A DNA stretch of 64,000 nt from Naegleria gruberi (taxonomy: Eukaryota). Shown here in pieces: positions 1 to 28,919 of this stretch. Position 1 is the first letter of the stretch, and every line of letters starts with the position of its first letter. Both the position numbers and the translations under genes were made by a program. The stretch is taken from assembly GCA_000004985.1 (NCBI GenBank), contig GG738904.1; one strand, 5' to 3'. The notes beneath the pieces are model-generated. The model searched no databases. It was given only the letters and a program-made list of their open reading frames with translations, and had not been told where the DNA came from.

Positions 1-723
1 TCTGAACATTGGGTTTATTTGGTCGATTCTAAGGGATTAGTTACACAAACTCGTTCTGATTACGAAGAAATGCCACATCACAAGAAGAAGTATGCCAAGA
101 AGGGTGATGAAACTTTGGGTAACTTCCAATCCAAATCTCTTTTGGAAATTGTTCAAAAGACTCAACCAACTGCTCTCATTGGTCTCTGTGGTCAATCTGG
201 TGTTTTCACTCAAGATATCATTGAAGAAATGGCCAAGATTAACCAAAAGCCAATCGTTTTTGCCTTGTCCAACCCAACTAAGAATTCTGAATGTACTGCC
301 AAGGAAGCTATTGAATATTCAAGTGGAAGAGCTATCTTTGCTTCTGGTTCTCCATTCGAAGATGTTACTTACAATGGAAAGACTTATCAATTGAGTCAAG
401 GTAACAATTTGTACATTTTCCCAGCTTTGGGTCTTGGTGCTGTCGTTACCAGATCAAAGCACGTTTCTGATGTTATGATTTTGAGAGCTGCTCAAACTTT
501 GGCCGATCTCACAAGCCAAGATAGATTGGACAATGGATTGTTGTATCCAAGTTTGACAAATATCAGAGAAATTGCTCAAAAGATTGCTGTCCAAGTTGGT
601 AAACAAAGTGTTAAGGAAGGTCTTTCTCAATTGACTGAAGAACAATTACCAAAATCTGAAGAAGAATGGGTTAAAATTGTTAAGGATTATGTATATACTC
701 CAGATTATGAGTCCAAATTGTAA
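1..723 (+). CDS. NAD(P)-dependent malic enzyme, C-terminal part (5' end lies outside the window)
   Basis: The frame is open from base 1. Translation ...WVYLVDSKGLVTQTR...IVFALSNPTKNSECTAKEAIEYSSGRAIFASGSPF...QGNNLYIFPALGLG matches the conserved malic-enzyme C-terminal half (IWLVDSKGL, IIFALSNPT, GRAIFASGSPF, QGNNxYxFPG). The stop is at 721-723. Codon bias is strong (AAG/TTG/CAA/GGT), suggesting high expression. Confidence 0.85.
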   Translation, partial: SEHWVYLVDSKGLVTQTRSDYEEMPHHKKKYAKKGDETLGNFQSKSLLEIVQKTQPTALIGLCGQSGVFTQDIIEEMAKINQKPIVFALSNPTKNSECTAKEAIEYSSGRAIFASGSPFEDVTYNGKTYQLSQGNNLYIFPALGLGAVVTRSKHVSDVMILRAAQTLADLTSQDRLDNGLLYPSLTNIREIAQKIAVQVGKQSVKEGLSQLTEEQLPKSEEEWVKIVKDYVYTPDYESKL

Positions 724-1081
724 ATATTTCAACAATTAATTTAAACCAACTATTATAAACATTTAATATTTCACTGATATTATTTCACACACTTTCAATA
801 TATTCTCCATTCCAATCGCAACAGCGTCCAACCATACTCAATTCTGTCCAATTCTATCTAAATGCAACCTGAGGATCTCCTTCACAACCAAGCGCATCAA
901 CCAAACACTAGTCCGACCAGCACTACGATCCTAGTGCACTTCAATTAATATCATGTCATGAAATCTCTCCACCGTATTACTTTTAAACAAAAAGAAAAAA
1001 AATCTCCAATTGTTAACTGTACAAATCTTTCATCTTTTTCCGAAAGTTAGAGAATAATTTGAAAGAGAAGGTGAACACAAA

Positions 1082-2092
1082 ATGACTAGTCAAGAGAGTA
1101 ATGATGGATCAATTTCCTATGGATGGTGGATTGCCACTCTTTTAATAGGAATTGTCCTGATGAGAATATTGCAATTAATTATGAAATTGAAAAGACAAAT
1201 AAGCAAGGCTGGTGGAACTCCTGGTTATTGGCAATTATTGGCTGAAGGCTTGTTTATCATGCCAATTCTTTCGCCCTATATTGCTCATGGTAATTTCCCA
1301 GTGATTCAAGGATTGATTGCTAAGGAGGAAGAGAGAGCTAAGGGAAGTGATGAAAAGCAATTGATTATTCGTGTCAGTACTCCCTATAGAAATAATTATG
1401 TAATTTGGGATAAGGATTCAGTGAAGGAAGTTTTAGTTACAAAATCATCATCCTTTCCAAAACCTTTGGATTTTTATGAACCTTTCAATATTTTCGATAA
1501 GGATGCTACTTCAATTTTGACAGCTGCCGATGGTCCAGTTTGGAAGAATCATAGACATGTGGTGGCTCCTTCATTCTCAACTGGTAATTTGGTTTTTATG
1601 AGTCAAGTGACTGTAAAGACAGTTGATGCATTGTTTAGAACAAAGTGGAATAAGTTATTGGACCAGGATAGTAAGGGATTCATTATGGATATGGAAGATA
1701 CTACAGCTGTCACTCTTCAAATTATTGGTGAAAGTGGATTTGGTATGGATTTTGGTGTTTTCGATGAAACTAGCTCTGATTCTAAAAAGTTTAGAGAAGC
1801 ATTGAATATTGTCGTGAGAGTTGACTATTATGCCAGATTCTTCCTTGCTAAAATCCCATTCCTTTACAATGCAGTTTCTGATTATACTGGAAATACAGAA
1901 GCTCTCAAGGTGATGAGTGAAAAGCTTGAACAATGCATTTCTCAAAGAGTAGCCGAATTCAAACAAGATCCAGAAAAACCAATGAATGATTTATTGTCGC
2001 TCCTTGTTAAGGCAAACATGATGGATGAAAAACTCACACTCAATGAATTGAAGAGTAACAGTTACATCTTCGTAGTTGCAGGTCATGAGTAT
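1082..2092 (+). CDS. Cytochrome P450 #1 (CYP4-clan-like), first exon through the I-helix AGHE
   Basis: The ORF has an N-terminal TM anchor, P450 core motifs (WKNHRHVVAPSFS, GESGFGMDFGVFDE) and ends ...FVVAGHE, the I-helix AGHETT. The reading frame is lost right after catgag at 2092. The continuation TTATTMQW... is found 5.1 kb downstream. Confidence 0.75.
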
Positions 2093-2685
2093 TGAAAATC
2101 AGAAGGTGTTCTTAAAGATGGTCACTGGTGCCATCAATGGTTTGATTCGTGGATTTTGGTTAAAGATATTATTCCACTTGAAGAACATTCTTCAATTATT
2201 AGGAGATGTTACAGCATGCTATGTGGAAAGTACCGTTAATATTTCCAAAGATATTTTGGAAATGTACAGTTTCATAATGAAGGAATCATTTTTGGAAAGA
2301 TTAAATTCAAGAATTGAGGAGAGAAATCTTTTATGTATTGATTTTGAAATTGTTAACAATGGATTGGTAGATAGGAATGCAGAGTGTTTTAACTCATGGT
2401 ATGAAAATGTATCTAAACATCTTATTGATTGGTCAAGTAAGGCTGTAAGTAATCGATTTGCAGAGTTTACAGAGTTAGTGGATGAAATTTTTGGTCAAGT
2501 TAAGAATGATTATGCAATGATTGCTGATAAAACTATTGAAAAGAGAACAATGGAGTATAATTTTATTACTGAAAAGAAGAGAAGATTGACAGAATTGATC
2601 AAAGAGTTAAAAAAGTAGATTGGTAATGAGTAAATTGAATTGTGTCTGTGCAATTCTGATTGTATTCTTGTAAAGTGGTGATGGT

Positions 2686-3050
2686 ACCTGTCAGGTACCG
2701 TCACAGGTACTTGGCAGGTACGATTTTTACCATCACAGGTACCGTCACAGGTACTTGGCAGGTATCACAGGTACCATCAGGTACCATCAGGTACCATCAC
2801 AGGTACCGTCACAGGTGCAAATGGTACCTGACAAGTACAATCACAGGTACCGTCACAGGTATCTGAATTTCCTCACAGGTACCATCACAGGTACTTGGCA
2901 GGTATCACAGGTACCATCACAGGTACCATCACAGGTACCGTCACAAGTACTTGGACCATCACAAGTACCCTTACAAGGACTTGTAAGGTGCTCAACACGT
3001 ACCTACAGTGTCTGACAAGTATGGTACCTCACAATAACCATCACAGCTAC
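2686..3050. repeat. Minisatellite: ~30 degenerate tandem copies of a 12-nt unit (A/G)TCACAGGTACC
   Basis: Reading the sequence directly: atcacaggtacc, gtcacaggtac and ttggcaggta variants repeat head-to-tail across ~365 bp, with many GGTACC (KpnI) cores. It lies inside the P450 #1 insertion. Confidence 0.8.
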
Positions 3051-3099
3051 AACAAACACCATAACAAATACTTTTTATATCTCCTCCAATCAACTATAT

Positions 3100-4299
3100 T
3101 TATTTGAAATATTTGGATTTCTTAATAGGTCTATGGACATTATGATCATTTTCTGAATCAGAACTAATACCACCTCTATCTGAAGAATCTTCTTCAACAT
3201 CTTCTTCTTCATCATCCTCTTCAACTTCACAATGATCAGCATTTCCAAAGCAAATATTGTACCAAATTGGAGGACCTTCATCAGACTTGTTACAATCATC
3301 TTTATCCATTTGCTTTTCAAAGAATAACTCCATTTCAAAGGCATCAAGTTCTTCATTCAATTGAATAACATCCTTAACAGGTGGTTCTATGATGGCTTCC
3401 TCTTCAATATAACCATTCTCATTGTAACGATTGATGAGAAGAACTGTTTCCTTTGAGGTGTCAAATATCTCTTCTTCCTCCTTCTCATTAAAATCAATAC
3501 TTTCATCATCTGCTATAGTTGCAGATTCCTTCTTTTCATACTCCACAATTAAATTCAAACCACTAACATCTGGTTTGATTACAAGACTGGAAAGCGTGTC
3601 TTCATTTAGAGATGGCAAATCATCATATGGGAAAACAATACTTTGAGTTTCACTAACGGATGAGTATCCATCTTGATCTGCTCTAGCCATTTCGACAGAA
3701 TCATCATCAGTGAGTGCATCATCTTCTGTTAGAATCAATGGTTCATTAAATACATCAACTTGTTCTTCCATCTGAGTTTCTGCACTTGATATAATCAATA
3801 AAGGTTGAACCAATTCATATCTCTCATTGGTGTAAGAGTAAAGGTCAATGTCATCATTGTTTAATAACAAGTTTAACAATGTTGAATTACTAGTCTGTGA
3901 AAGCACTTTTCCCTTCTTACTAAACTCTCCAACAAATGCTTGGAAATTGAATTCACTATTACATTGTTCCAACTCTTTGAAATAAATCAAAGAAGGGTTC
4001 ATTTCAAGTAAATCTGCCAAATCTTCTAATTTACTATCCATGGATAAAAAGTCATCATGCTTCTTCTCCTTAAAAATCAAAAGTAAGAGACAAAGTGCAA
4101 AATAATCACAAGAGTAATCTGCTGATAATCCATTAATATCATCTTGATTGATAGGATCGTTACCAAGCCAAAAAGATGTCAATTCCTTCCTTAGCTTGAT
4201 ATCCAAATAACAGAAATCACTGACAACTTCACTATAAAATTTCTTCTTTACTAATTCTTCTACTAAACACCACTTGTTGAAATATGTATTGTACAACAT
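3100..4299 (-). CDS. Hypothetical acidic protein (399 aa, D/E-rich, no recognised domain)
   Basis: It is a long uninterrupted minus-strand ORF with genome-typical codon usage. It has D/E-rich tracts (EEDDEEEDVEEDSSD). I recognise no domain. Confidence 0.4.
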   Translation of the reverse strand: MLYNTYFNKWCLVEELVKKKFYSEVVSDFCYLDIKLRKELTSFWLGNDPINQDDINGLSADYSCDYFALCLLLLIFKEKKHDDFLSMDSKLEDLADLLEMNPSLIYFKELEQCNSEFNFQAFVGEFSKKGKVLSQTSNSTLLNLLLNNDDIDLYSYTNERYELVQPLLIISSAETQMEEQVDVFNEPLILTEDDALTDDDSVEMARADQDGYSSVSETQSIVFPYDDLPSLNEDTLSSLVIKPDVSGLNLIVEYEKKESATIADDESIDFNEKEEEEIFDTSKETVLLINRYNENGYIEEEAIIEPPVKDVIQLNEELDAFEMELFFEKQMDKDDCNKSDEGPPIWYNICFGNADHCEVEEDDEEEDVEEDSSDRGGISSDSENDHNVHRPIKKSKYFK

Positions 4300-4590
4300 G
4301 ATGGATTATTCCTTTTTTTTCAAAAACAAAAGCTTTCACACAACCTCGAGTCGTGTGAAATGTCTCACACTCTAATATTTTAATATTTTTATAAGGCTTG
4401 AATATATATATATATATATTGAAAAGGGATTGACCGAAACTGGAAGACACATTAATTGGATATCTAAAGAGACCAAACAAATTTTCCTCAGAATTGAAGA
4501 GTCACGTCGCTACGTCCCTCAAGACATCCACACAACTTTGCAAATTAATACAATTGAGAAAAAAAAACTACTTTTATTTTCGACTCAACT

Positions 4591-6966
4591 TTGTTACAAG
4601 TAACAACACACATCAAATTCCAACACAGAACTCAATATAGCAGAATGATAAGAAAAAACTGGTTAAAAGAAGAAGAAGATCTTTTGGTCAAATTGGTAAA
4701 GGAAAAAGGCCACAATTGGACTGAAATTGCTCCCAACTTCGATGTTACTCCAAATGCCTGCCACAAAAAGTATAAGGATTTGTTAAAGAATCTTGGCAGG
4801 AAAAGATCGTTCTGGACTGATGAAATGAAAGCTAATCTCCTTAAATTAGCAAAAGAATATGCCGATAAAGGAATAGAGAAATGGAAGATTATTGAGGAAA
4901 AATTAGGAAAAGAAGCTAAAGCTTGCCAACAGCATTTTTATTATTTAGTCAAACAGCACGGGTTGGATTCTAATGATTTCAACAGCGTCAGACCATTTTG
5001 GACCATGGAAGAGAAGCGCGAATTGACTGAGTTAGTCAATTTGCATGGAAGGAAGTGGAAGAAAATTGAGAAACTAATTAGCTGCAACAGAGATGCTCAT
5101 TCTTGTCAGAGCCAGTTTATGCTATTAGAAAGTAGACAGAATGATCCAATTGAAAAGAAGTTGAACGATATCTTTCAAGCAACGACTTCAGAGACAGATT
5201 TGAATGAAATCTCTCTTTACGAATTCTTCAATATCCCAACAAGTAGATACAATGGGGTTCCAGCATCGACTTTGTTGGTGGATCAAGCAGATGAAGTTGA
5301 TGAAGAAACATTTCATCGTTCTTACATGGCTGGAGATACTGAATTTAGTGTACGTGAGGTTGCAACTGGTAGATTGGTCAGAAAAACCATTGAGGAGATT
5401 TATCTTTCCAGTGGAACATATGAAACATATAGTATTGAATCTGGATTTAATGTGGAAGAAATTGGTAAGTTTCGTTTCAATTACTATTTTCAAAGAATAA
5501 TAATAATGAAAGAATGTAAATTGTTTCCAGCAAATGAAGTATTAGAGTTGAGTGCTACTTGTTTCAAAGCAAAATTATATTTCAATGAATGTGCTCGAAT
5601 TGTTGAAGAGAAACGTTTCATATTTTCCGAACAAGTTCAAGTCCGTCCAGATGAGTGCAGTAGTGTGAGATTACCTGTATCAGATCTTCAAGACAATATG
5701 TTCATCATTAATAACTATCAATTGAAATCCAAGGAAAAGCTTGTAAGAACATCATTACCATGTGGTCAACTTACTGACACCACCCAAACAAAAGAATGTA
5801 AGTATTTTATGAATTATTCTCATAATATTTTAAAGATTTTGACATTTTGTTCAGAACTTTCCCAACTCTAGTTGACTCCAAAGACAAACAGGGAGTCATG
5901 GTTCAACTATTGGGAGCCTATTTAGCAGATGGTGATGGAGGATACTTTAAATTGTATTTTAATGCCAAAAATGAGCAAGAACTTACCTATTATTTTACAG
6001 ATTTCTTAAAAGAAATTTGTGAATTGAATTCAGAGACAATAAGAGAGGATCTTAAATTCAAGAAAGAGGAAGAGTATGTCACCATTAAGCTCAATGATAA
6101 GAATGCTGACAAGGATATTGAACGAGTCTTACAAAATGGTTATCAAATATCCGGGTCCATACTTGTTGCACCTGCATGGTATGTTTTTCACTTTCAATAC
6201 ATTTTTACTAGTAACAAATAGTACTGGCTTACACAGATTTTTAAAAGAAATAGAATTGTTATGTAATAAGTATAATGGCAGTTACCAAACTAGAAAGAAT
6301 TTCTCTTCCATCTTCAACATTACAAATTTTGGTATGTTTAGCTTGTACAAATTTTTCGAAGGTTCTGTACAAGGAGATGGCACATTAGAGAGTAATCGTG
6401 TAACGTTTGGTCAGAATTGTTCAATTTCAGATACTCACCAACAGTACTTTAATCAGGTCCACCATTGTGCAACCATGCTTGGGTTAAAGACTGGCGTGGG
6501 TAAAGTGTGTGAAGAAACTACAGGTTTGAAAATGACTGGTAAGAACATGACCATTTTTGAAAGTGAAGGACTTGAGAAAAAGAAAGTAAATGCAGATGTT
6601 GTGTTTAGACCATTTAATCTTACAGTTCAAAGATTAATAGGTGAATCAATGAAGAAGATGTACTGTTTCAAGAAGAGTAATCACTCCTTCCCAATGTTTA
6701 ATGGAATGATAGTGCAAAATGTTGATACTGATCTAGTTTCTGCTAAAATATGTTATGGGAATAGATGGGAAATTCGTGAAATGGACAACTATGAATCTGC
6801 TGCCACTTTCTGCTTGAAGAAATATATTGCTTCCTTAGGGTTTCCAAGTGACCGTATGACAAGAAATGCTGTAAGAAGATTAATACTAAAAATAGAAGGA
6901 ATAGTATCTGTTAAAAGAAAGCAAAAATCAAACAAGGAATCAAACAAGAAAGTTAAAACACAATAA
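4591..6966 (+). CDS. Three-repeat Myb/SANT-like protein with a C-terminal LAGLIDADG-like motif region (3 exons inferred)
   Basis: Exon 1 (to ~5797) encodes three W-x19-21-W Myb/SANT repeats (WLKEEEDLLVKLVKEKGHNWTEIAPNF; WTDEMKANLLKLAKEYADKGIEKWKII; WTMEEKRELTELVNLHGRKWKKIEKLI). A GTAAGT donor at 5798 and a tattttaaAG acceptor at 5835 join in frame to FDILFRTFPTLVDSKDKQGVMVQLLGAYLADGDGGYFKLYF, which carries a LAGLIDADG-like hhDGDG motif. A GTATGT donor at ~6179 and aaatAG acceptor at ~6221 join to the 6076..6966 frame. That frame has a weaker second motif, LYKFFEGSVQGDGTL. The true start may be the Met of MIRKNW at ~4645. Confidence 0.5.
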
Positions 6967-7128
6967 CATTTCAATTAAAGAATATATTTACTGAACTTTA
7001 TTAAATGACTTTTTATTTCTGAATAAACAAAAGTATATTGAGCACTTTTGCATCCATTTGAAAATTGACAATCATTTCTGCTGAAATGGTCATGTAAGAA
7101 GTATGAATTATGTCATTCTGGAAACTCT

Positions 7129-7186
7129 TCGTATTCATCCACCTGTAACATGTGTTTAGAGTTGCTAAGAAGACAACCACATGAGG
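7129..7186 (+). pseudogene. Relic P450 fragments: ETLRIHPPV pseudo-exon followed by an ACATGAG micro-exon-like copy
   Basis: gaaactcttcgtattcatccacctgta translates to ETLRIHPPV and is followed by a stop. This is the P450 K-helix/ECLRLHPPV region, out of order relative to the gene. Immediately 3', acatgag|gttcgtg... is homologous to the micro-exon plus donor of P450 #2 at 24333-24345. Confidence 0.4.
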
Positions 7187-7234
7187 TTCGTGTTTTATAA
7201 TTAATTTTACAAGTGTTTAACAAAATATTTAAGA

Positions 7235-7842
7235 CGACTGCCACAACCATGCAATGGTTAATGTACGAATTGTCCAAGCGTCCAGAAGCTCAACAAAAGG
7301 CCAGAGAAGAAGCAATCAGAATTGGAGGAGGTGACAATGTTTTGAGAGCTCCAGATTTTGATGATTACAACAATATGGACTATATTCATGGTTGTGTAAT
7401 GGAATGCTTACGTCTCCATCCACCAGTCGTTTCCATGGTAAAAACCTGTGCCAAATCTACCAAAATTGGAAAAACAAGCATTCCAAAGGGATCTTGCATC
7501 TATGTAAATGCCAAGGCCTGTCACTTGTACGGTGAAGATTTTAACACCACTGAATTTACTGGTGCTCAATTCGCTCCAGAAAGATTTTTGGATAAGGATT
7601 TCAAACAAAAGGTTCAAACAAGTGGAGCATGGTTCCCATTCAATATGAGTAATAGAAAATGCATTGGTTACATGTTTGCCCAAATTGAATTGTGTATCAT
7701 GTTGTGTAGAATGTTGCAATTTTATGAATTCAAATTGTTGAATGATGAAAGTAAACCAGCTGAGAAGGTTGAAGATCTTCCTGGTATTACCTTTAGACCA
7801 TCTTCTAATTTGAAGGTTTTGGTAACAAGAAGAACAAAATAA
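7235..7842 (+). CDS. Cytochrome P450 #1, terminal exon (I-helix TT... through heme loop to stop)
   Basis: It follows the acceptor tttaag and translates TTATTMQWLMYELSK...ECLRLHPPV...FPFNMSNRKCIGYMFAQIEL (PFxxGxRxCxG cysteine loop, CYP4-like). The stop is at 7840-7842. It pairs with the exon at 1082-2092. The exon start is ±2 nt. Confidence 0.75.
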
Positions 7843-13065: not shown

Positions 13066-14181
13066 TTGATTGCCTATTTATTTGGCAAGCAAAAAAAAAT
13101 GGCAAAAGTAAGGTACTACTACAATGACCAATTCGAATCAGATGATTTACTTTCTACAACCTTCTCTTGTCAAGAATCTCCATTCCTTAATCAAGTCAAC
13201 CCTCAATTCAGAGATAACATTAATGTTCAATTGGTATTTAACAAGAAAATAATGCCACCACTTGAAAACCAATCTCTTGCTCAAATTGAATTGGAAAAAA
13301 CTTTTGATGGCTGTCAAGATGTCACAATTATTTATACTGATCTATCAAGTGATGGAAAATTTTGTGGTTACATGAAAACGTATTTGGTTTCTGGTGATGA
13401 TGAAATATTTACAAGGAATTCATTGGTTAGAAACTTGTTGGATTTGGTCAACCAGTTCGATATTCCATACGAAACAGTCTTTGAGAATTTCAGAAACCTT
13501 ATTTCTCAACGTGTTTTACATGTCAATTCCAAAAGTTCTGGTTTTTCAAAGTATTTCAATGGTAATGAAAGAAGATATATTAATGGTTTAGGTATTTTTG
13601 GTGCTTTGAAGAAACTATTCGAAACGGACAATAAGCTTTCGAATAGTTTGAGTCATTATTATGAAAAGAAGAAATTAGTTGACCGACTTTACAAACACGG
13701 AATTTATCATTATTCTTCTTTTTGTAGACTCAGTCTTATTCCACTAATTGGATTTGAAGGAAAAGAAGGTGAGAGAATTAATGTTTCGTCTCTGATACAA
13801 GCAAGAGATATCTATTCGAAACATGAACAATTGTATTTATGTGCTGATGTCGATTCAGAACTAACTATGGGTTTTCATGACATGTTGATTTCAGAATTAG
13901 CTACACAAGTTTGTGATCAGGGAGGCGAAATTCCTGAAACTGGATGCAGAATTCCAGGTTTTTTGGAAGCTTTTGGAAGATTAGGCAAGTTTCTAATAGA
14001 AAGTTGGAAGATTGGAGTAGGACTTGTTTGTTGTTTGGTAATTCCAGAGTTAATTCCTTTGGCAGCAATAGTTGTTGGAGTTTTTTGTTATTATTCTGTT
14101 TCATCATTAAAAAGAAAAGAAGTGAGAATTCTTCTAGCAAAGAAAGTCAAATCAGACGAAACTGGATCAATTTGTTTTTAA
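13066..14181 (+). CDS. Hypothetical protein with C-terminal transmembrane hairpin (371 aa)
   Basis: It is a long ORF with no recognised domain. The C-terminus is hydrophobic: IGVGLVCCLVIPELIPLAAIVVGVFCYY. Confidence 0.45.
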   Translation: MIAYLFGKQKKMAKVRYYYNDQFESDDLLSTTFSCQESPFLNQVNPQFRDNINVQLVFNKKIMPPLENQSLAQIELEKTFDGCQDVTIIYTDLSSDGKFCGYMKTYLVSGDDEIFTRNSLVRNLLDLVNQFDIPYETVFENFRNLISQRVLHVNSKSSGFSKYFNGNERRYINGLGIFGALKKLFETDNKLSNSLSHYYEKKKLVDRLYKHGIYHYSSFCRLSLIPLIGFEGKEGERINVSSLIQARDIYSKHEQLYLCADVDSELTMGFHDMLISELATQVCDQGGEIPETGCRIPGFLEAFGRLGKFLIESWKIGVGLVCCLVIPELIPLAAIVVGVFCYYSVSSLKRKEVRILLAKKVKSDETGSICF

Positions 14182-23238: not shown

Positions 23239-24928
23239 ATGGCTTTAAGCGAAATTATTTTGGGAATTGTTTGCGTTTTTGCTGCAATTCTTCTCTTCTT
23301 CCTCATTTCAATTTATAATAATTATAAGAAAGTGAGTCACATTCCAGGTGCTTTCCAATTCTTCTTGACTTTTAAGAATATTCCAATCATTTCACCTTAT
23401 TTGAGTTTCGATGGACACAAGAGAATGGAACAATTGGTCAAAACTCACGGAGATCCAAAAACTGGACTTGTCAGATTATCCATGTTCGATAGAAATATGG
23501 TTGTAGTTTCAGATAGAGACATGTTGAAGGAATTGTTGGTCGTTAAGGGTGGAATTTTCATCAAATCTTGGAAATTATATGAAGTTTTCAATGCTTTCGG
23601 CAAGAATATCTTATCAATTCTCGATGGTACCAGTGATTCATGGAAAAATCATCACAAAGTAGCTTCAGGTGCTTTTGCTTCTAAAAATTTGGAATACATG
23701 TCAAGAGTTGCCTCAAAATCTTTGGATTTGTGTAAGGAAAGTAAATGGGATGGTGAAATGGAAAAGGCATTGAAGGAAGGAAAGGAAGGTATTATTATTG
23801 ATACCAATGCTGATTTTAGTGATATTACTTTGGGTAAGTTTCGAATTTTGACATTGTCATGTTGACCTTTCGAATAATAGACGTTCTTGGTAAGGCTGCT
23901 TTCGGTTTGGACTTTTCCATCTTTGATGAAACTAACCCAGAAGGTAGAATTTTCAGAAAATCCCTCGAAAAGATGTTTACCACTGGTGTAATCTTAAAAC
24001 GTTTCGTCGGATTAAATCCAGTCCTTTCCTGGGCTTTCCCATGGGCTTGCAAATATACTGGTTTAGATAAGGCAGTAAAAGTTGTGAGTGATAAGTTGGA
24101 TGCAATCATTGCGGAAAGAACTCGTGAAGTAGAATTGCGTGGAATGGAAGATGGAAACACATCCGAAACTGGTGTTGAAGAAAGAAAGGATTTGTTGAGT
24201 GTTTTGGTTGAAGCCAATTTCATTCAAAAGGGAATCTTGTCAGGTGATGAACTCAAATCTGACGCTTATATCTTTTCGCTTGCTGGGTATGTATTCGAAT
24301 TTTAAACTATTTGTCCTAATTTATTTTCATAGACATGAGGTTCGTATTTGCAAATTTACAATTTTTTGTAATGATTTTTTTATTTGAAATTTTAGACAAC
24401 TTCAACAACTTTACAATGGGTTTGTTACGAATTATCAACAAAACCAGATATTCAAAATAAGATTCGTGAAGAGATTGATTTACATCTCGGAAAGGGTGTA
24501 AATGCCAGAGCTCCAAACTTTGACGATTATCCAATTATGAACTATGTCAATGCTGTCATTATGGAAACTGCAAATAGAAGTGATCGAAACTGGGATAAAC
24601 CTTTAGAATTCATTCCAGAAAGATATCCAATGAATGCTGAAGAACAATTGAGAATTCAACATGATTTCACTTGGATTCCATTCTCTATGGGTAATCGTAA
24701 ATGCATTGTAAGTACTTTTTGAAAATTTCACAAGTTTACAAAATTTTTCAGGGTTTCAAGTTTGCTCAAATTGAAGCTTTTACAATTCTTGTAAGATTAC
24801 TTCAATTCTATGAATTAGGATTGGATAATGATGAATCTAATCCAAAGGATCAAATTGTTGATGTTCCTGGCGTTACAGTTCGTCCAGGAAATTGTAGAAT
24901 TATTCTCAAACCAAGAAAGGATCTTTAA
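23239..24928 (+). CDS. Cytochrome P450 #2 (paralog of #1), 5 exons including a 7-nt micro-exon
   Basis: The exons are 23239-23833, 23881-24286, 24333-24339 (ACATGAG encoding (G)HE of AGHETT), 24396-24707 and 24752-24928. The donors are GTAAGT/GTATGT/GTTCGT and the introns are 44-56 nt, with consistent phases. The protein has ...DVLGKAAFGLDF...FSLAGHETTSTTLQWVCYEL...PFSMGNRKCIGFKFAQIEAF. Confidence 0.8.
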
Positions 24929-27749: not shown

Positions 27750-28919
27750 NNNNNNNNNNNNNNNNNNNNNNNNNNNNNNNNNNNNNNNNNNNNNNNNNNN
27801 NNNNNNNNNNNNNNNNNNNNNNNNNNNNNNNNNNNNNNNNNNNNNNNNNNNNNNNNNNNNNNNNNNNNNNNNNNNNNNNNNNNNNNNNNNNNNNNNNNNN
27901 NNNNNNNNNNNNNNNNNNNNNNNNNNNNNNNNNNNNNNNNNNNNNNNNNNNNNNNNNNNNNNNNNNNNNNNNNNNNNNNNNNNNNNNNNNNNNNNNNNNN
28001 NNNNNNNNNNNNNNNNNNNNNNNNNNNNNNNNNNNNNNNNNNNNNNNNNNNNNNNNNNNNNNNNNNNNNNNNNNNNNNNNNNNNNNNNNNNNNNNNNNNN
28101 NNNNNNNNNNNNNNNNNNNNNNNNNNNNNNNNNNNNNNNNNNNNNNNNNNNNNNNNNNNNNNNNNNNNNNNNNNNNNNNNNNNNNNNNNNNNNNNNNNNN
28201 NNNNNNNNNNNNNNNNNNNNNNNNNNNNNNNNNNNNNNNNNNNNNNNNNNNNNNNNNNNNNNNNNNNNNNNNNNNNNNNNNNNNNNNNNNNNNNNNNNNN
28301 NNNNNNNNNNNNNNNNNNNNNNNNNNNNNNNNNNNNNNNNNNNNNNNNNNNNNNNNNNNNNNNNNNNNNNNNNNNNNNNNNNNNNNNNNNNNNNNNNNNN
28401 NNNNNNNNNNNNNNNNNNNNNNNNNNNNNNNNNNNNNNNNNNNNNNNNNNNNNNNNNNNNNNNNNNNNNNNNNNNNNNNNNNNNNNNNNNNNNNNNNNNN
28501 NNNNNNNNNNNNNNNNNNNNNNNNNNNNNNNNNNNNNNNNNNNNNNNNNNNNNNNNNNNNNNNNNNNNNNNNNNNNNNNNNNNNNNNNNNNNNNNNNNNN
28601 NNNNNNNNNNNNNNNNNNNNNNNNNNNNNNNNNNNNNNNNNNNNNNNNNNNNNNNNNNNNNNNNNNNNNNNNNNNNNNNNNNNNNNNNNNNNNNNNNNNN
28701 NNNNNNNNNNNNNNNNNNNNNNNNNNNNNNNNNNNNNNNNNNNNNNNNNNNNNNNNNNNNNNNNNNNNNNNNNNNNNNNNNNNNNNNNNNNNNNNNNNNN
28801 NNNNNNNNNNNNNNNNNNNNNNNNNNNNNNNNNNNNNNNNNNNNNNNNNNNNNNNNNNNNNNNNNNNNNNNNNNNNNNNNNNNNNNNNNNNNNNNNNNNN
28901 NNNNNNNNNNNNNNNNNNN
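27750..28919. other. Assembly gap (N run, ~1170 nt)
   Basis: A continuous run of n. ORF-track proteins made of X (27566..28951, 27592..28938, front of 27747..30545) are artefacts of the gap. Confidence 0.95.

What the first reader, a model, noticed from the sequence alone, without database searches (positions are those of the whole stretch)
4591..6966. Myb/SANT x3 gene with a LAGLIDADG-like motif inside the inserted block
Three tandem Myb/SANT-type repeats (W-x19-21-W) are followed, after an inferred 38-nt intron, by VMVQLLGAYLADGDGGYFKLYF. This fits the LAGLIDADG homing-endonuclease core (hydrophobic-hydrophobic-D-G-D-G). About 150 residues later, after an inferred 43-nt intron, comes a weaker second motif, LYKFFEGSVQGDGTL. 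If real, this fuses a sequence-specific DNA-binding domain to a homing-endonuclease-like domain inside a nuclear insertion. That combination is reminiscent of HO-type or domesticated endonucleases and would be unusual. The LAGLIDADG assignment rests on short motifs only.
Basis: partly seen in the sequence, partly recalled or inferred. Interest (0 to 1): 0.6.

Follow-up and report, generated by a model that had tools for sequence, protein, structure and literature searches.

The report
Myb-fused intein-like endonuclease gene copy
A Naegleria gruberi nuclear gene joins three Myb DNA-binding repeats to what is probably a very diverged relative of the yeast VDE/HO intein-type LAGLIDADG endonucleases, and this copy lies in a 5.1-kb piece of another chromosome region that was pasted into a cytochrome P450 gene and broke it.

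Summary
The spliced product of 4645-6966 (three GT-AG introns) is identical to the N. gruberi 'predicted protein' NAEGRDRAFT_73307. The three Myb repeats are solid (Pfam E 5e-20).

The LAGLIDADG reading is probable but not proven:
- No Pfam, NCBIfam, PHROGs or PDB HMMER hit reaches threshold. The only trace is Hom_end at 12.7 bits against a cut-off of 21.1.
- Structure prediction failed.
- Profile-profile comparison with a VDE/HO/DnaB-intein alignment does align both motifs, the block-D lysine, block H and the C-terminal intein block. They align in order, and the alignment ends on the intein's last Asn. The two halves give P 6.5e-5 and 1.6e-3 against shuffles.
- The N-terminal Hint half is not detectable, and the splicing residues are absent.

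The family has only three members, all from N. gruberi.

The 'inserted block' is real. A related environmental Naegleria has the same P450 uninterrupted. The 5,090-bp insert (2090-7179) is not a transposon or a homing cassette. It is a truncated 99%-identical copy of another N. gruberi locus and starts at codon 522 of a 697-aa gene.

Verdict: a new variant of a known kind, resembling HO, with moderate confidence.

The parts
4645..6966 (+). Gene NAEGRDRAFT_73307: CDS of 4 exons (4645-5464, 5531-5797, 5836-6178, 6222-6966), 724 aa
   Evidence: The spliced translation is identical to P0001.
4660..5127 (+). Three Myb/SANT repeats (R1 4660-4785, R2 4810-4950, R3 4996-5127)
   Evidence: Pfam PF13921 E 4.6e-20 and PF00249 E 6.8e-20, 3 stretches each. 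Best PDB sequence match is S. pombe Reb1, 5eyb, E 6e-6.
5465..5530 (+).
   Evidence: Removing it is required for identity to P0001.
5798..5835 (+). 38-nt intron (GTAAGT..AAAG)
   Evidence: The similarity to P0003 resumes directly after the acceptor.
6179..6221 (+). 43-nt intron (GTATGT..ATAG)
   Evidence: The alternative 58-nt acceptor would create a TGA stop.
5263..5891 (+). aa 207-381: unassigned region between the Myb repeats and the endonuclease core. It could be a degenerate N-terminal Hint/DNA-recognition region, but this is not shown.
   Evidence: It is conserved in P0003. MAFFT places it against intein block A, but hhalign finds no signal (P 0.46 and 0.31).
5892..6017 (+). First LAGLIDADG region (aa 382-423). 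Motif LLGAYLADG is at 5907-5933; D394 aligns with PI-SceI D218.
   Evidence: hhalign aligns family residues 176-217 with VDE 206-246, score 27.7, 0/200 shuffles reach it, Gumbel P 6.5e-5. The motif is conserved in the 33%-identical P0003.
6292..6315 (+). Block-D-like RKNFSSIF. K502 aligns with PI-SceI K301 (KNIPSFL).
   Evidence: BLASTP HSP, HMMER alignment, MAFFT. The column is nearly invariant in A2.
6352..6381 (+). Second LAGLIDADG motif FFEGSVQGDG. D529 aligns with PI-SceI D326.
   Evidence: The sub-region test gives P 1e-3.
6466..6498 (+). Block-H-like CATMLGLKTGV (aligns with PI-SceI LARSLGLVVSV)
6658..6720 (+). C-terminal intein (Hint block F/G)-like MYCFKKSNHSFPMFNGMIVQN. The alignment ends on the intein's terminal Asn. 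The penultimate His is Gln and the +1 residue is Val.
   Evidence: The hhalign alignment ends at VDE residue 454 of 454. The sub-region test gives P 2e-3.
6721..6963 (+). 81-aa C-terminal tail with predicted helices and a basic KRKQKSNKESNKKVK end (NLS-like, by inference)
   Evidence: secondary structure only. No family match.
2090..7179 (.). 5,090-bp inserted segment that interrupts a P450 ORF. It is a truncated copy of another N. gruberi locus on a 573-kb scaffold.
   Evidence: Empty site in L001/P0025. Paralogues of all three genes lie on one scaffold with consecutive UniProt accessions D2V8Z8/8Z9/900. The left edge is fixed. The right edge is inferred from the CATGAG repeat.
2088..2618 (+). 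3' fragment (codons 522-697) of a 697-aa gene that is intact at the other locus (NAEGRDRAFT_65340). Here it is annotated as the 118-aa NAEGRDRAFT_73305.
   Evidence: tblastn of P0029 aa 522-697 gives 99.4% identity. Residues 1-521 are absent here.
2680..2990 (.). GGTACC-rich, imperfect 12-nt-based repeats in the intergenic part of the segment
   Evidence: They are also present next to the acidic-gene fragment in the metagenome contig L003.
3100..4299 (-). Acidic 399-aa gene NAEGRDRAFT_73306, transcribed divergently from the Myb gene. No recognisable domain.
   Evidence: Exact match to P0021. The paralogue P0022 is 394/399 identical. No Pfam, PDB, PHROGs or NCBIfam hit.
1082..2089 (+). P450 N-terminal half (annotated NAEGRDRAFT_73304, 337 aa). 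It ends ...AGHE and then reads Y-stop inside the insert.
7234..7842 (+). P450 C-terminal half (TTATTMQW...). It is annotated from its first Met as NAEGRDRAFT_73308.
   Evidence: The joined halves give one continuous Pfam p450 match, E 3.9e-63.
2066..2089 (+). 24-bp tract abutting the insert that differs at 9 positions from the empty-site sequence; one more difference lies at 7236. The changes are mostly synonymous.
   Evidence: 10 of 25 mismatches over 2,517 aligned bases fall here; binomial P 2e-15.
7180..7233 (+). Second CATGAG (7180-7185, a direct repeat of 2084-2089) followed by a 48-nt GT..AG intron-like segment (7186-7233). Both are absent from the empty-site sequence.
   Evidence: The segment resembles the intron at the same E|T codon boundary of the paralogous P450 (24340-24395): 33 identical columns, 4/500 shuffles reach the score.

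Best explanation
What it is. NAEGRDRAFT_73307 is an intact nuclear gene.
- Its product starts with three Myb repeats, followed by about 220 unassigned residues.
- Next comes a two-motif LAGLIDADG endonuclease core of the intein type (PI-SceI/VDE and HO; Pfam Hom_end).
- That core ends in a remnant of the C-terminal intein (Hint) block. An 81-residue basic tail follows.
- The protein-splicing residues are gone: no N-terminal nucleophile can be identified, the terminal HN has become QN, and the +1 residue is Val.
- The residues that align with the PI-SceI catalytic Asp218, Asp326 and Lys301 are kept (D394, D529, K502).

How it most likely works (inferred, not shown). It is a free-standing, sequence-specific DNA-binding and probably DNA-cleaving protein. 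The Myb repeats would add target recognition, as the zinc fingers do in yeast HO.

The copy in this window.
- It is not at its home locus.
- A 5,090-bp stretch of the home locus was copied here (shown). It holds the last 176 codons of a 697-aa gene, the acidic 399-aa gene and the whole Myb gene.
- It was copied into the I-helix codons (AGHE|TT) of a P450 gene.
- The most likely route is repair of a double-strand break by ectopic or templated copying (inferred).
- Whether the gene's own product made that break is open.
For: Gene and Myb repeats.

Family. There are only three members among about 15 billion proteins, all from N. gruberi. The 33%-identical member P0003 keeps G-x-Y-x-A-D-G and NAKNE-x-ELT.

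Similarity to inteins.
- Pairwise BLASTP to PI-SceI gives three weak, collinear HSPs.
- The only Pfam trace on the core segment is Hom_end.
- An HMM of 16 VDE/HO/DnaB inteins scores the protein at P 0.0025, on blocks D, E and H.
- hhalign scores 28.3. Column shuffles give 15.5 +/- 2.3 (maximum 22.5). Reversed controls give 13.8 and 15.9.
- Independent halves give P 6.5e-5 and 1.6e-3, with 0/200 shuffles reaching either score; Fisher combined P is about 2e-6. Using hhalign's own P values, the combination is about 1e-4 by my calculation.
- MAFFT alone puts blocks C, D, E, H, F and G in register.
- P0003 alone hits motif 1 in register.

Insertion.
- An uninterrupted orthologous P450, with the same malic-enzyme neighbour, occurs in metagenome contig L001. 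It is 98-99% identical on both sides.
- Paralogues of all three genes in the segment sit together on the 573-kb scaffold, at 99%, 99% and 95% identity.
- The P450 halves have no paralogue at 90% identity or above. So this is neither a second haplotype of the same locus nor a larger duplication.
Against: - No curated profile reaches threshold. Hom_end scores 12.7 bits against a cut-off of 21.1. PDB, PHROGs and NCBIfam give nothing.
- HH-suite's own probabilities are low: 4.7% for the whole protein and up to 31% for motif 1 alone.
- When 12-column segments are kept intact but reordered, 10/200 shuffles reach the real score. Much of the score therefore comes from short motif-sized pieces.
- The N-terminal Hint half gives no signal.
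- AlphaFold2 failed on the single sequence (pLDDT 34) and reached only pLDDT 45 with an intein-seeded alignment. The Foldseek hits to PI-SceI and I-DmoI are circular because of that alignment.
- The intein alignment was chosen after I had seen the resemblance, and the split points of the sub-tests were chosen after the fact.
- No activity, expression or target data exist.
- The source-locus gene model P0002 lacks motif 1 and block D. At least one copy may therefore be decaying.
Confidence: 0.6

Rival explanations
1. The C-terminal 500 residues are a lineage-specific domain unrelated to LAGLIDADG enzymes or inteins. The two G-D-G motifs and the other block matches arise by chance and from composition.
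For: - All HMMER-level searches are negative, and HH probabilities are low.
- Shuffles that keep 12-column segments intact often reach the real score.
- No confident structure was obtained.
Against: - Four or five further blocks align in the right order and spacing, and the alignment ends on the intein's last residue.
- Independent halves are both beyond 200 shuffles, and reversed controls stay at background.
- The three catalytic positions coincide.
- Motif 1 is among the few stretches conserved at 33% identity.
- The only Pfam trace is the expected family.
Confidence: 0.22
2. The fold is LAGLIDADG/intein-derived, but the protein no longer cuts DNA. It would be a domesticated DNA-binding factor, for example a transcription or chromatin factor, that uses the Myb repeats plus a dead endonuclease scaffold.
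For: - The motifs are atypical: position 6 is L or Q instead of an acidic or small residue, and E523 replaces A.
- The family is old enough to have a 33%-identical paralogue. Long retention of a nuclear gene suggests a host function.
- Domestication of LAGLIDADG scaffolds as maturases and DNA binders is established knowledge.
Against: The residues aligning with D218, D326 and K301 of PI-SceI are all kept. Nothing here tests activity in either direction.
Confidence: 0.3
3. The 5.1-kb block is a classical homing cassette. The endonuclease would cut the conserved P450 I-helix sequence, and the cassette would be copied in by homologous repair, co-converting the flanks.
For: - The site is the most conserved P450 motif.
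- An empty site exists.
- A 27-bp tract at the junction is replaced by a diverged, mostly synonymous version, P 2e-15. This looks like co-conversion.
Against: - The left junction lies inside the coding sequence of an unrelated 697-aa gene that is intact at the other locus. The cassette therefore has no homologous flank there and was not resident in a P450.
- Only two copies exist.
- There is no intron or ribozyme and no in-frame intein, so the host gene is simply broken.
Confidence: 0.05
4. The block is a DNA transposon that inserted with a 6-bp target-site duplication (CATGAG), with the Myb protein as an accessory factor in the manner of Harbinger elements.
For: - CATGAG flanks the 5,090-bp segment on both sides.
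- Harbinger elements encode a Myb-like protein (established knowledge).
- A diverged fragment occurs in another context in the metagenome.
Against: - There are no terminal inverted repeats.
- There is no transposase, integrase or reverse transcriptase.
- The left end is a truncated host gene.
- There are only two copies.
Confidence: 0.04

Closest known systems
HO endonuclease of Saccharomyces (free-standing, intein-derived LAGLIDADG nuclease that starts mating-type switching)
   Same: - Nuclear and free-standing.
- The best similarity is to the VDE/HO (Hom_end) branch.
- Splicing residues are lost while the endonuclease catalytic positions are kept.
- An extra DNA-binding domain is fused to the intein-like body.
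   Different: - The extra domain is three N-terminal Myb repeats rather than C-terminal zinc fingers.
- Similarity is far below family thresholds.
- The N-terminal Hint half is not detectable.
- No target or biological role is known.
- The organism is a heterolobosean, not a yeast. Independent origin and common descent cannot be told apart here.
PI-SceI (VMA1-derived endonuclease, VDE), an intein with a LAGLIDADG core
   Same: Blocks C, D, E, H, F and G are collinear. D218, D326 and K301 align with D394, D529 and K502. The alignment ends at the terminal Asn.
   Different: - It is not inserted in a host protein at a conserved site.
- There is no Cys1, no block-B His, QN instead of HN, and Val at +1, so it cannot splice.
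- The spacing between the motifs is 135 aa rather than 108.
His-Cys box homing endonucleases of Naegleria rDNA group I introns (I-NgrI, I-NjaI and relatives)
   Same: Same genus; nuclear site-specific endonucleases (literature, e.g. PMC2602781).
   Different: - A different fold and catalytic motif.
- Those enzymes sit inside self-splicing introns on the rDNA plasmid.
- No ribozyme or intron RNA occurs here.
Reb1/Ttf1- and c-Myb-type multi-repeat Myb DNA-binding domains
   Same: Three tandem Myb repeats. The best PDB sequence matches are S. pombe Reb1 (E 6e-6) and c-Myb R1R2R3 (E 1e-4).
   Different: To my knowledge and in the literature searched, those proteins carry no nuclease-like domain.

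Membership tests
Myb/SANT DNA-binding domain | Profile match above the curated threshold, with repeats of about 50 aa carrying regularly spaced aromatic residues | tested here: met
   PF13921 scores 72 bits (cut-off 22.9) and PF00249 scores 71.4 bits (cut-off 24.4), 3 stretches each. The Trp spacings are x18, x22 and x18 (read from the sequence).
LAGLIDADG homing endonucleases | Significant match to a curated LAGLIDADG profile (LAGLIDADG_1/2/3, Hom_end) | tested here: not met
   Nothing for the whole protein at E <= 10. On the core segment, only Hom_end at 12.7 bits, E 0.15, against a cut-off of 21.1.
LAGLIDADG homing endonucleases | Two LAGLIDADG motifs about 100-140 aa apart, each ending in a conserved acidic residue followed by Gly | tested here: met
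   LLGAYLADG (D394) and FFEGSVQGDG (D529) lie 135 aa apart. They align with PI-SceI D218 and D326. Profile-profile P is 6.5e-5 and 1.6e-3 for the two halves.
LAGLIDADG homing endonucleases | Pseudo-dimeric alpha-beta-beta-alpha-beta-beta-alpha fold | tested here: inconclusive
   The single-sequence model has pLDDT 34. The intein-seeded model has pLDDT 45. It shows helix-strand-strand-helix-strand-strand at residues 304-377 of the 518-residue query (protein residue = query residue + 206). Its Foldseek hits to PI-SceI and I-DmoI depend on the seeded alignment.
LAGLIDADG homing endonucleases | Site-specific DNA cleavage leaving 4-nt 3' overhangs | not testable with these tools
   Needs the purified protein and candidate targets.
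Inteins (Hint domain with splicing activity) | N-terminal block A with a Cys/Ser nucleophile and block B T-x-x-H | tested here: not met
   hhalign finds no signal for the N-terminal region (P 0.46 and 0.31). No nucleophile can be placed; MAFFT's partial alignment starts after position 10 of the intein.
Inteins (Hint domain with splicing activity) | C-terminal blocks F/G ending in His-Asn, followed by Cys/Ser/Thr | tested here: not met
   The block is present and aligned to the very end of the intein (P 2e-3). However, it ends Gln-Asn and is followed by Val, so it is a relic and not a working splice junction.
HO-like free-standing intein-derived endonucleases | Intein-type body that lacks splicing residues, retains catalytic residues, and carries an added DNA-binding domain | tested here: inconclusive
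   The architecture fits, but homology is only at profile-profile level and the N-terminal Hint half is unproven.
Homing element (self-copying endonuclease cassette) | The cassette sits in its own recognition site with homologous flanks, and empty and occupied alleles exist | tested here: not met
   An empty site exists. But the left flank of the insert is the middle of an unrelated gene, and the cassette's home locus is elsewhere.
DNA transposon | Defined termini (inverted repeats), a transposase, and a target-site duplication | tested here: not met
   A 6-bp direct repeat is present. There are no terminal inverted repeats, no transposase domain, and the segment ends cut through a host gene.

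The most novel reading that the evidence does not exclude
Naegleria carries an active enzyme that works like HO: a Myb-guided, intein-derived LAGLIDADG nuclease that makes programmed or recurrent double-strand breaks in the nuclear genome. On this reading, three features at the P450 AGHE|TT site would all be repair scars of its activity. These are the 5.1-kb copy of its own locus, the loss or gain of a 48-nt intron, and the 27-bp conversion tract. This would be a second, independent domestication of an intein endonuclease outside fungi. It would also be a possible entry point to the unobserved sexual or switching biology of Naegleria.
Probability: 0.12. Interest if true: 0.85.

Novelty: new variant of a known kind. 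Interest (0 to 1): 0.6.

Why it matters
- Free-standing nuclear endonucleases derived from inteins are, to my knowledge, known only from yeasts (HO). A Myb-fused counterpart in a heterolobosean would show that this route of domestication is not unique to fungi. It would also supply a natural example of a LAGLIDADG core extended by a modular DNA-binding domain, which is what nuclease engineers build by hand.
- The gene is annotated only as 'predicted protein', and I found no literature on it.
- Independently of the fold question, the locus is a cleanly resolved case of a multi-gene ectopic duplication that disrupts a gene. An empty-site reference is available. The same codon boundary also carries a conversion tract and an intron presence/absence difference. 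This is useful material for studying break repair and intron turnover in Naegleria.

Tried and rejected
Protein searches that gave nothing
- Pfam on the whole protein and on four segments, NCBIfam, PHROGs, and PDB by phmmer and by family profile. Nothing beyond the Myb repeats, apart from the sub-threshold Hom_end hit.
- The exhaustive 1.84-billion-protein HMMER search and the word-seeded searches found only N. gruberi paralogues. No alignment deep enough for structure prediction could therefore be built.
- The acidic 399-aa protein and the 697-aa protein have no recognisable domain.

Structure
- AlphaFold2 on the single sequence was unusable.
- AlphaFold2 with an intein-seeded alignment was weak. 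I treat it and its Foldseek hits as circular.

Searches for further copies
- Scans of JGI metagenome and IMG/VR contigs with family patterns and with a 28-nt exact element sequence found nothing.
- No genomic DNA for P0001, P0002 or P0003 is on record in the contig index. The 573-kb source locus could only be inferred from proteins.

Ideas considered and dropped
- Group I/II intron or ribozyme in the block: none. tRNA: none.
- Terminal inverted repeats: none.
- A classical homing cassette. I favoured this after seeing the junction tract and dropped it once the left end proved to be codon 522 of another gene.
- A GT-AG intron that removes the block. No canonical pair restores AGHETT. Two frame-preserving splice variants that add QPHE or RQPHE are not on record as proteins.
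Full report
ORGANISM AND GENE MODEL

The window is nuclear DNA of Naegleria gruberi. It is about 33% G+C with short GT-AG introns.

Joining 4645-5464, 5531-5797, 5836-6178 and 6222-6966 gives a 724-aa product. That product is identical to the N. gruberi 'predicted protein' P0001 (XP_002671538, NAEGRDRAFT_73307, UniProt D2VWA0).

A third, in-frame 66-nt intron was overlooked. I had no RNA data.

MYB REPEATS

Pfam finds three repeats: Myb_DNA-bind_6 at E 4.6e-20 and Myb_DNA-binding at E 6.8e-20. The best PDB sequence matches are S. pombe Reb1 and c-Myb R1R2R3. This part of the finding is secure.

STANDARD SEARCHES ON THE REST OF THE PROTEIN

- Pfam shows no LAGLIDADG or intein family for the whole protein, even at E <= 10.
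- The PDB gives nothing by HMMER with the single sequence or a family profile.
- PHROGs and NCBIfam give nothing relevant.
- On the isolated core segment the only Pfam trace is Hom_end (PF05204, the VDE/HO endonuclease domain) at 12.7 bits, E 0.15, below its 21.1-bit cut-off.
- An exhaustive HMMER search of 1.84 billion cluster representatives found only two relatives, both from N. gruberi:
  - P0002, a roughly 95%-identical paralogue;
  - P0003, a partial 321-aa protein that is 33% identical. It conserves G-x-Y-x-A-D-G and the following NAKNE-x-ELT.
- With so shallow a family, AlphaFold2 on the single sequence failed (pLDDT 34).

PROFILE-PROFILE EVIDENCE

I noticed that the region resembles the block order of PI-SceI (VDE) and not just two motifs. 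I confirmed my recalled PI-SceI sequence against the PDB; it is identical to 1dfa. I then collected 16 VDE, HO-like and DnaB-type inteins and compared alignments.

Initial comparisons:
- BLASTP gives three weak but collinear HSPs. One of them aligns KNIPSFL...FLAGLIDSDG with KNFSSIF...KFFEGSVQGDG.
- An HMM of the inteins scores the protein at P 0.0025 on blocks D, E and H.
- hhalign scores 28.3 (P 0.0084). It aligns family residues 294-437 with VDE 299-454, ending exactly on the intein's terminal Asn. Family residue numbers here count within the 518-residue query; protein residue = query residue + 206.

Controls:
- Column shuffles give 15.5 +/- 2.3, maximum 22.5 (n = 120).
- Reversed query and reversed template give 13.8 and 15.9.

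Split tests:
- Split into two independent halves, the N-half aligns motif 1 and about 30 following columns (176-217 with VDE 206-246; score 27.7; 0/200 shuffles; Gumbel P 6.5e-5).
- The C-half aligns 134 columns (score 26.1; 0/200 shuffles; P 1.6e-3).
- Fisher combined P is about 2e-6. With hhalign's analytic P values the combination is about 1e-4 by my calculation.
- Smaller sub-tests give P 1e-3 for motif 2 and 2e-3 for the C-terminal Hint block.
- P0003 alone hits motif 1 in register (P about 0.01-0.03).

MAFFT, without guidance, aligns blocks C, D, E, H, F and G. In the combined alignment the nearly invariant columns are G183, K296, G318, G324 and G358 of the query.

D394, D529 and K502 fall on PI-SceI D218, D326 and K301. 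I know these as its catalytic residues from the literature (my recollection, not checked here).

CAVEATS

- HH-suite's probabilities are low, at 5-31%.
- Shuffles that keep 12-column pieces intact reach the real score in 10 of 200 trials. Short motif-sized pieces therefore carry much of the signal.
- The N-terminal Hint half gives no signal at all.
- I chose the comparison family and the split points after seeing the resemblance.
- The intein-seeded AlphaFold2 model has pLDDT 45. The two LAGLIDADG helices are its best parts, and it shows a helix-strand-strand-helix-strand-strand pattern. This model, and its Foldseek hits to PI-SceI and I-DmoI, are not independent evidence.

I put the probability that the core is truly LAGLIDADG/intein-derived at about 0.75, and the probability that it is still an active nuclease clearly lower. 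The splicing residues are absent: QN instead of HN, Val at +1, and no identifiable residue 1. It is not an intein; architecturally it resembles HO.

THE INSERTED BLOCK

A P450 ORF (1082-2089) stops right after ...FVVAGHE. The frame resumes at 7234 with TTATTMQW... Joined, the two halves give one continuous p450 match (E 3.9e-63). NCBI annotates the halves as separate proteins.

The N-terminal half clusters with P0025, a 478-aa protein from an environmental metagenome. Its contig, L001, carries the same malic-enzyme neighbour and an uninterrupted P450. It is 98.0% identical to window 1-2088 and 98.8% identical to 7234-7661. The block is thus a true insertion relative to a close relative.

WHAT THE BLOCK IS

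All three genes in the block have paralogues on one 573-kb scaffold, with consecutive UniProt accessions (D2V8Z8, D2V8Z9, D2V900):
- The acidic 399-aa gene (3100-4299, minus strand) has a 394/399-identical paralogue on the same scaffold as P0002.
- The small ORF at the left end (annotated as 118 aa) is 99.4% identical to residues 522-697 of a 697-aa protein encoded next to them.

The window's segment begins exactly at codon 522 of that gene. The junction with the P450 shares only the dinucleotide AG.

The P450 halves have no paralogue at 90% identity or above.

Hence the 5,090-bp segment (2090-7179) is a truncated, recent, ectopic copy of the home locus of the Myb gene. It is not a transposon: there are no inverted repeats and no transposase. 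It is not a homing cassette, because it has no homologous flank. It is not an intron, because it has no ribozyme and no GT-AG pair that restores the motif.

The Myb gene differs more between the copies (28 of 557 aligned residues) than its neighbours do (about 1%). The other copy's model skips the segments that hold Myb R2, motif 1 and block D. I could not tell whether this is decay or mis-annotation.

THE JUNCTION

The junction has three further features:
- CATGAG occurs on both sides of the segment (2084-2089 and 7180-7185).
- The second CATGAG is followed by a 48-nt GT..AG segment (7186-7233). The empty-site sequence lacks it. It resembles the intron at the same E|T boundary of the paralogous P450 at 23245-24919. 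That paralogue also has a 46-nt intron 7 nt upstream, leaving a 7-nt micro-exon ACATGAG.
- Ten of the 25 mismatches between the window and L001 over 2,517 bases lie in 27 bp at the junction. They are mostly synonymous (P 2e-15). The window's version is the one closer to the paralogue.

Two histories fit these facts:
- One complex repair event in the NEG-M lineage that copied from a P450 paralogue and from the Myb locus.
- An insertion in NEG-M plus an independent intron loss with a conversion tract in the other lineage.

Both histories require a break at this exact codon boundary. Neither shows who made it.

CONCLUSION

The Myb assignment and the insertion are certain. The 'mobile' flavour of the block is not supported.

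To my knowledge this combination has not been described. I rate it a new variant of a known kind.

Noticed in passing
window 2066-2089, 7186-7233 and 7236; L001 5985-6011: The P450 in this window has a 48-nt GT..AG intron-like segment at the AGHE|TT codon boundary. Next to it is a 27-bp tract with 10 mostly synonymous differences. The 98-99% identical metagenome orthologue has neither. This looks like intron gain or loss coupled to a short gene conversion from a paralogue.
   Followed up: partly
window 24287-24395: The second P450 gene in the window (23245-24919) appears to need a 7-nt micro-exon, ACATGAG (24333-24339). It lies between a 46-nt and a 56-nt intron and is required to encode AGHETT. 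The second intron sits at the same codon boundary as the insertion site in the first P450.
   Followed up: partly
window 7100-7147: About 135 bp after the Myb gene's stop there is a short P450 K-helix-like reading, SMNYVILETLRIHPPV (tblastn E 0.023 against the host P450). It lies out of order relative to the I-helix that follows. Its origin is unknown: the source locus, a third template, or chance.
   Followed up: partly
window 2680-2990; L003 840-1097: There are GGTACC-rich imperfect repeats based on a 12-nt unit (GGTACCATCACA) downstream of the acidic gene. They are conserved next to an 89%-identical fragment of that gene in the metagenome contig, where the upstream part of the gene is replaced by unrelated sequence.
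   Followed up: partly
window 4334-4360: A 12-bp-arm inverted repeat around CTCGAG (TTTCACACAACCTCGAGTCGTGTGAAA) lies in the 345-bp region between the divergently transcribed acidic and Myb genes. It could be a shared regulatory site.
   Followed up: no
P0001 vs P0002: The two copies of the Myb gene differ at 5% of residues, with a cluster at aa 304-317. The flanking genes of the same duplicated segment differ at about 1%. The other copy's gene model skips aa 42-113, 364-418 and 478-517.
   Followed up: partly
window 13453-13548: There is weak similarity (tblastn E 0.009, 44% over 32 aa) to residues 122-153 of the 697-aa protein P0029. The window may hold a distant paralogue of that gene.
   Followed up: no
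window 27750-28919: A run of 1,170 N (an assembly gap). It explains the 2% G+C bin in the composition profile.
   Followed up: no
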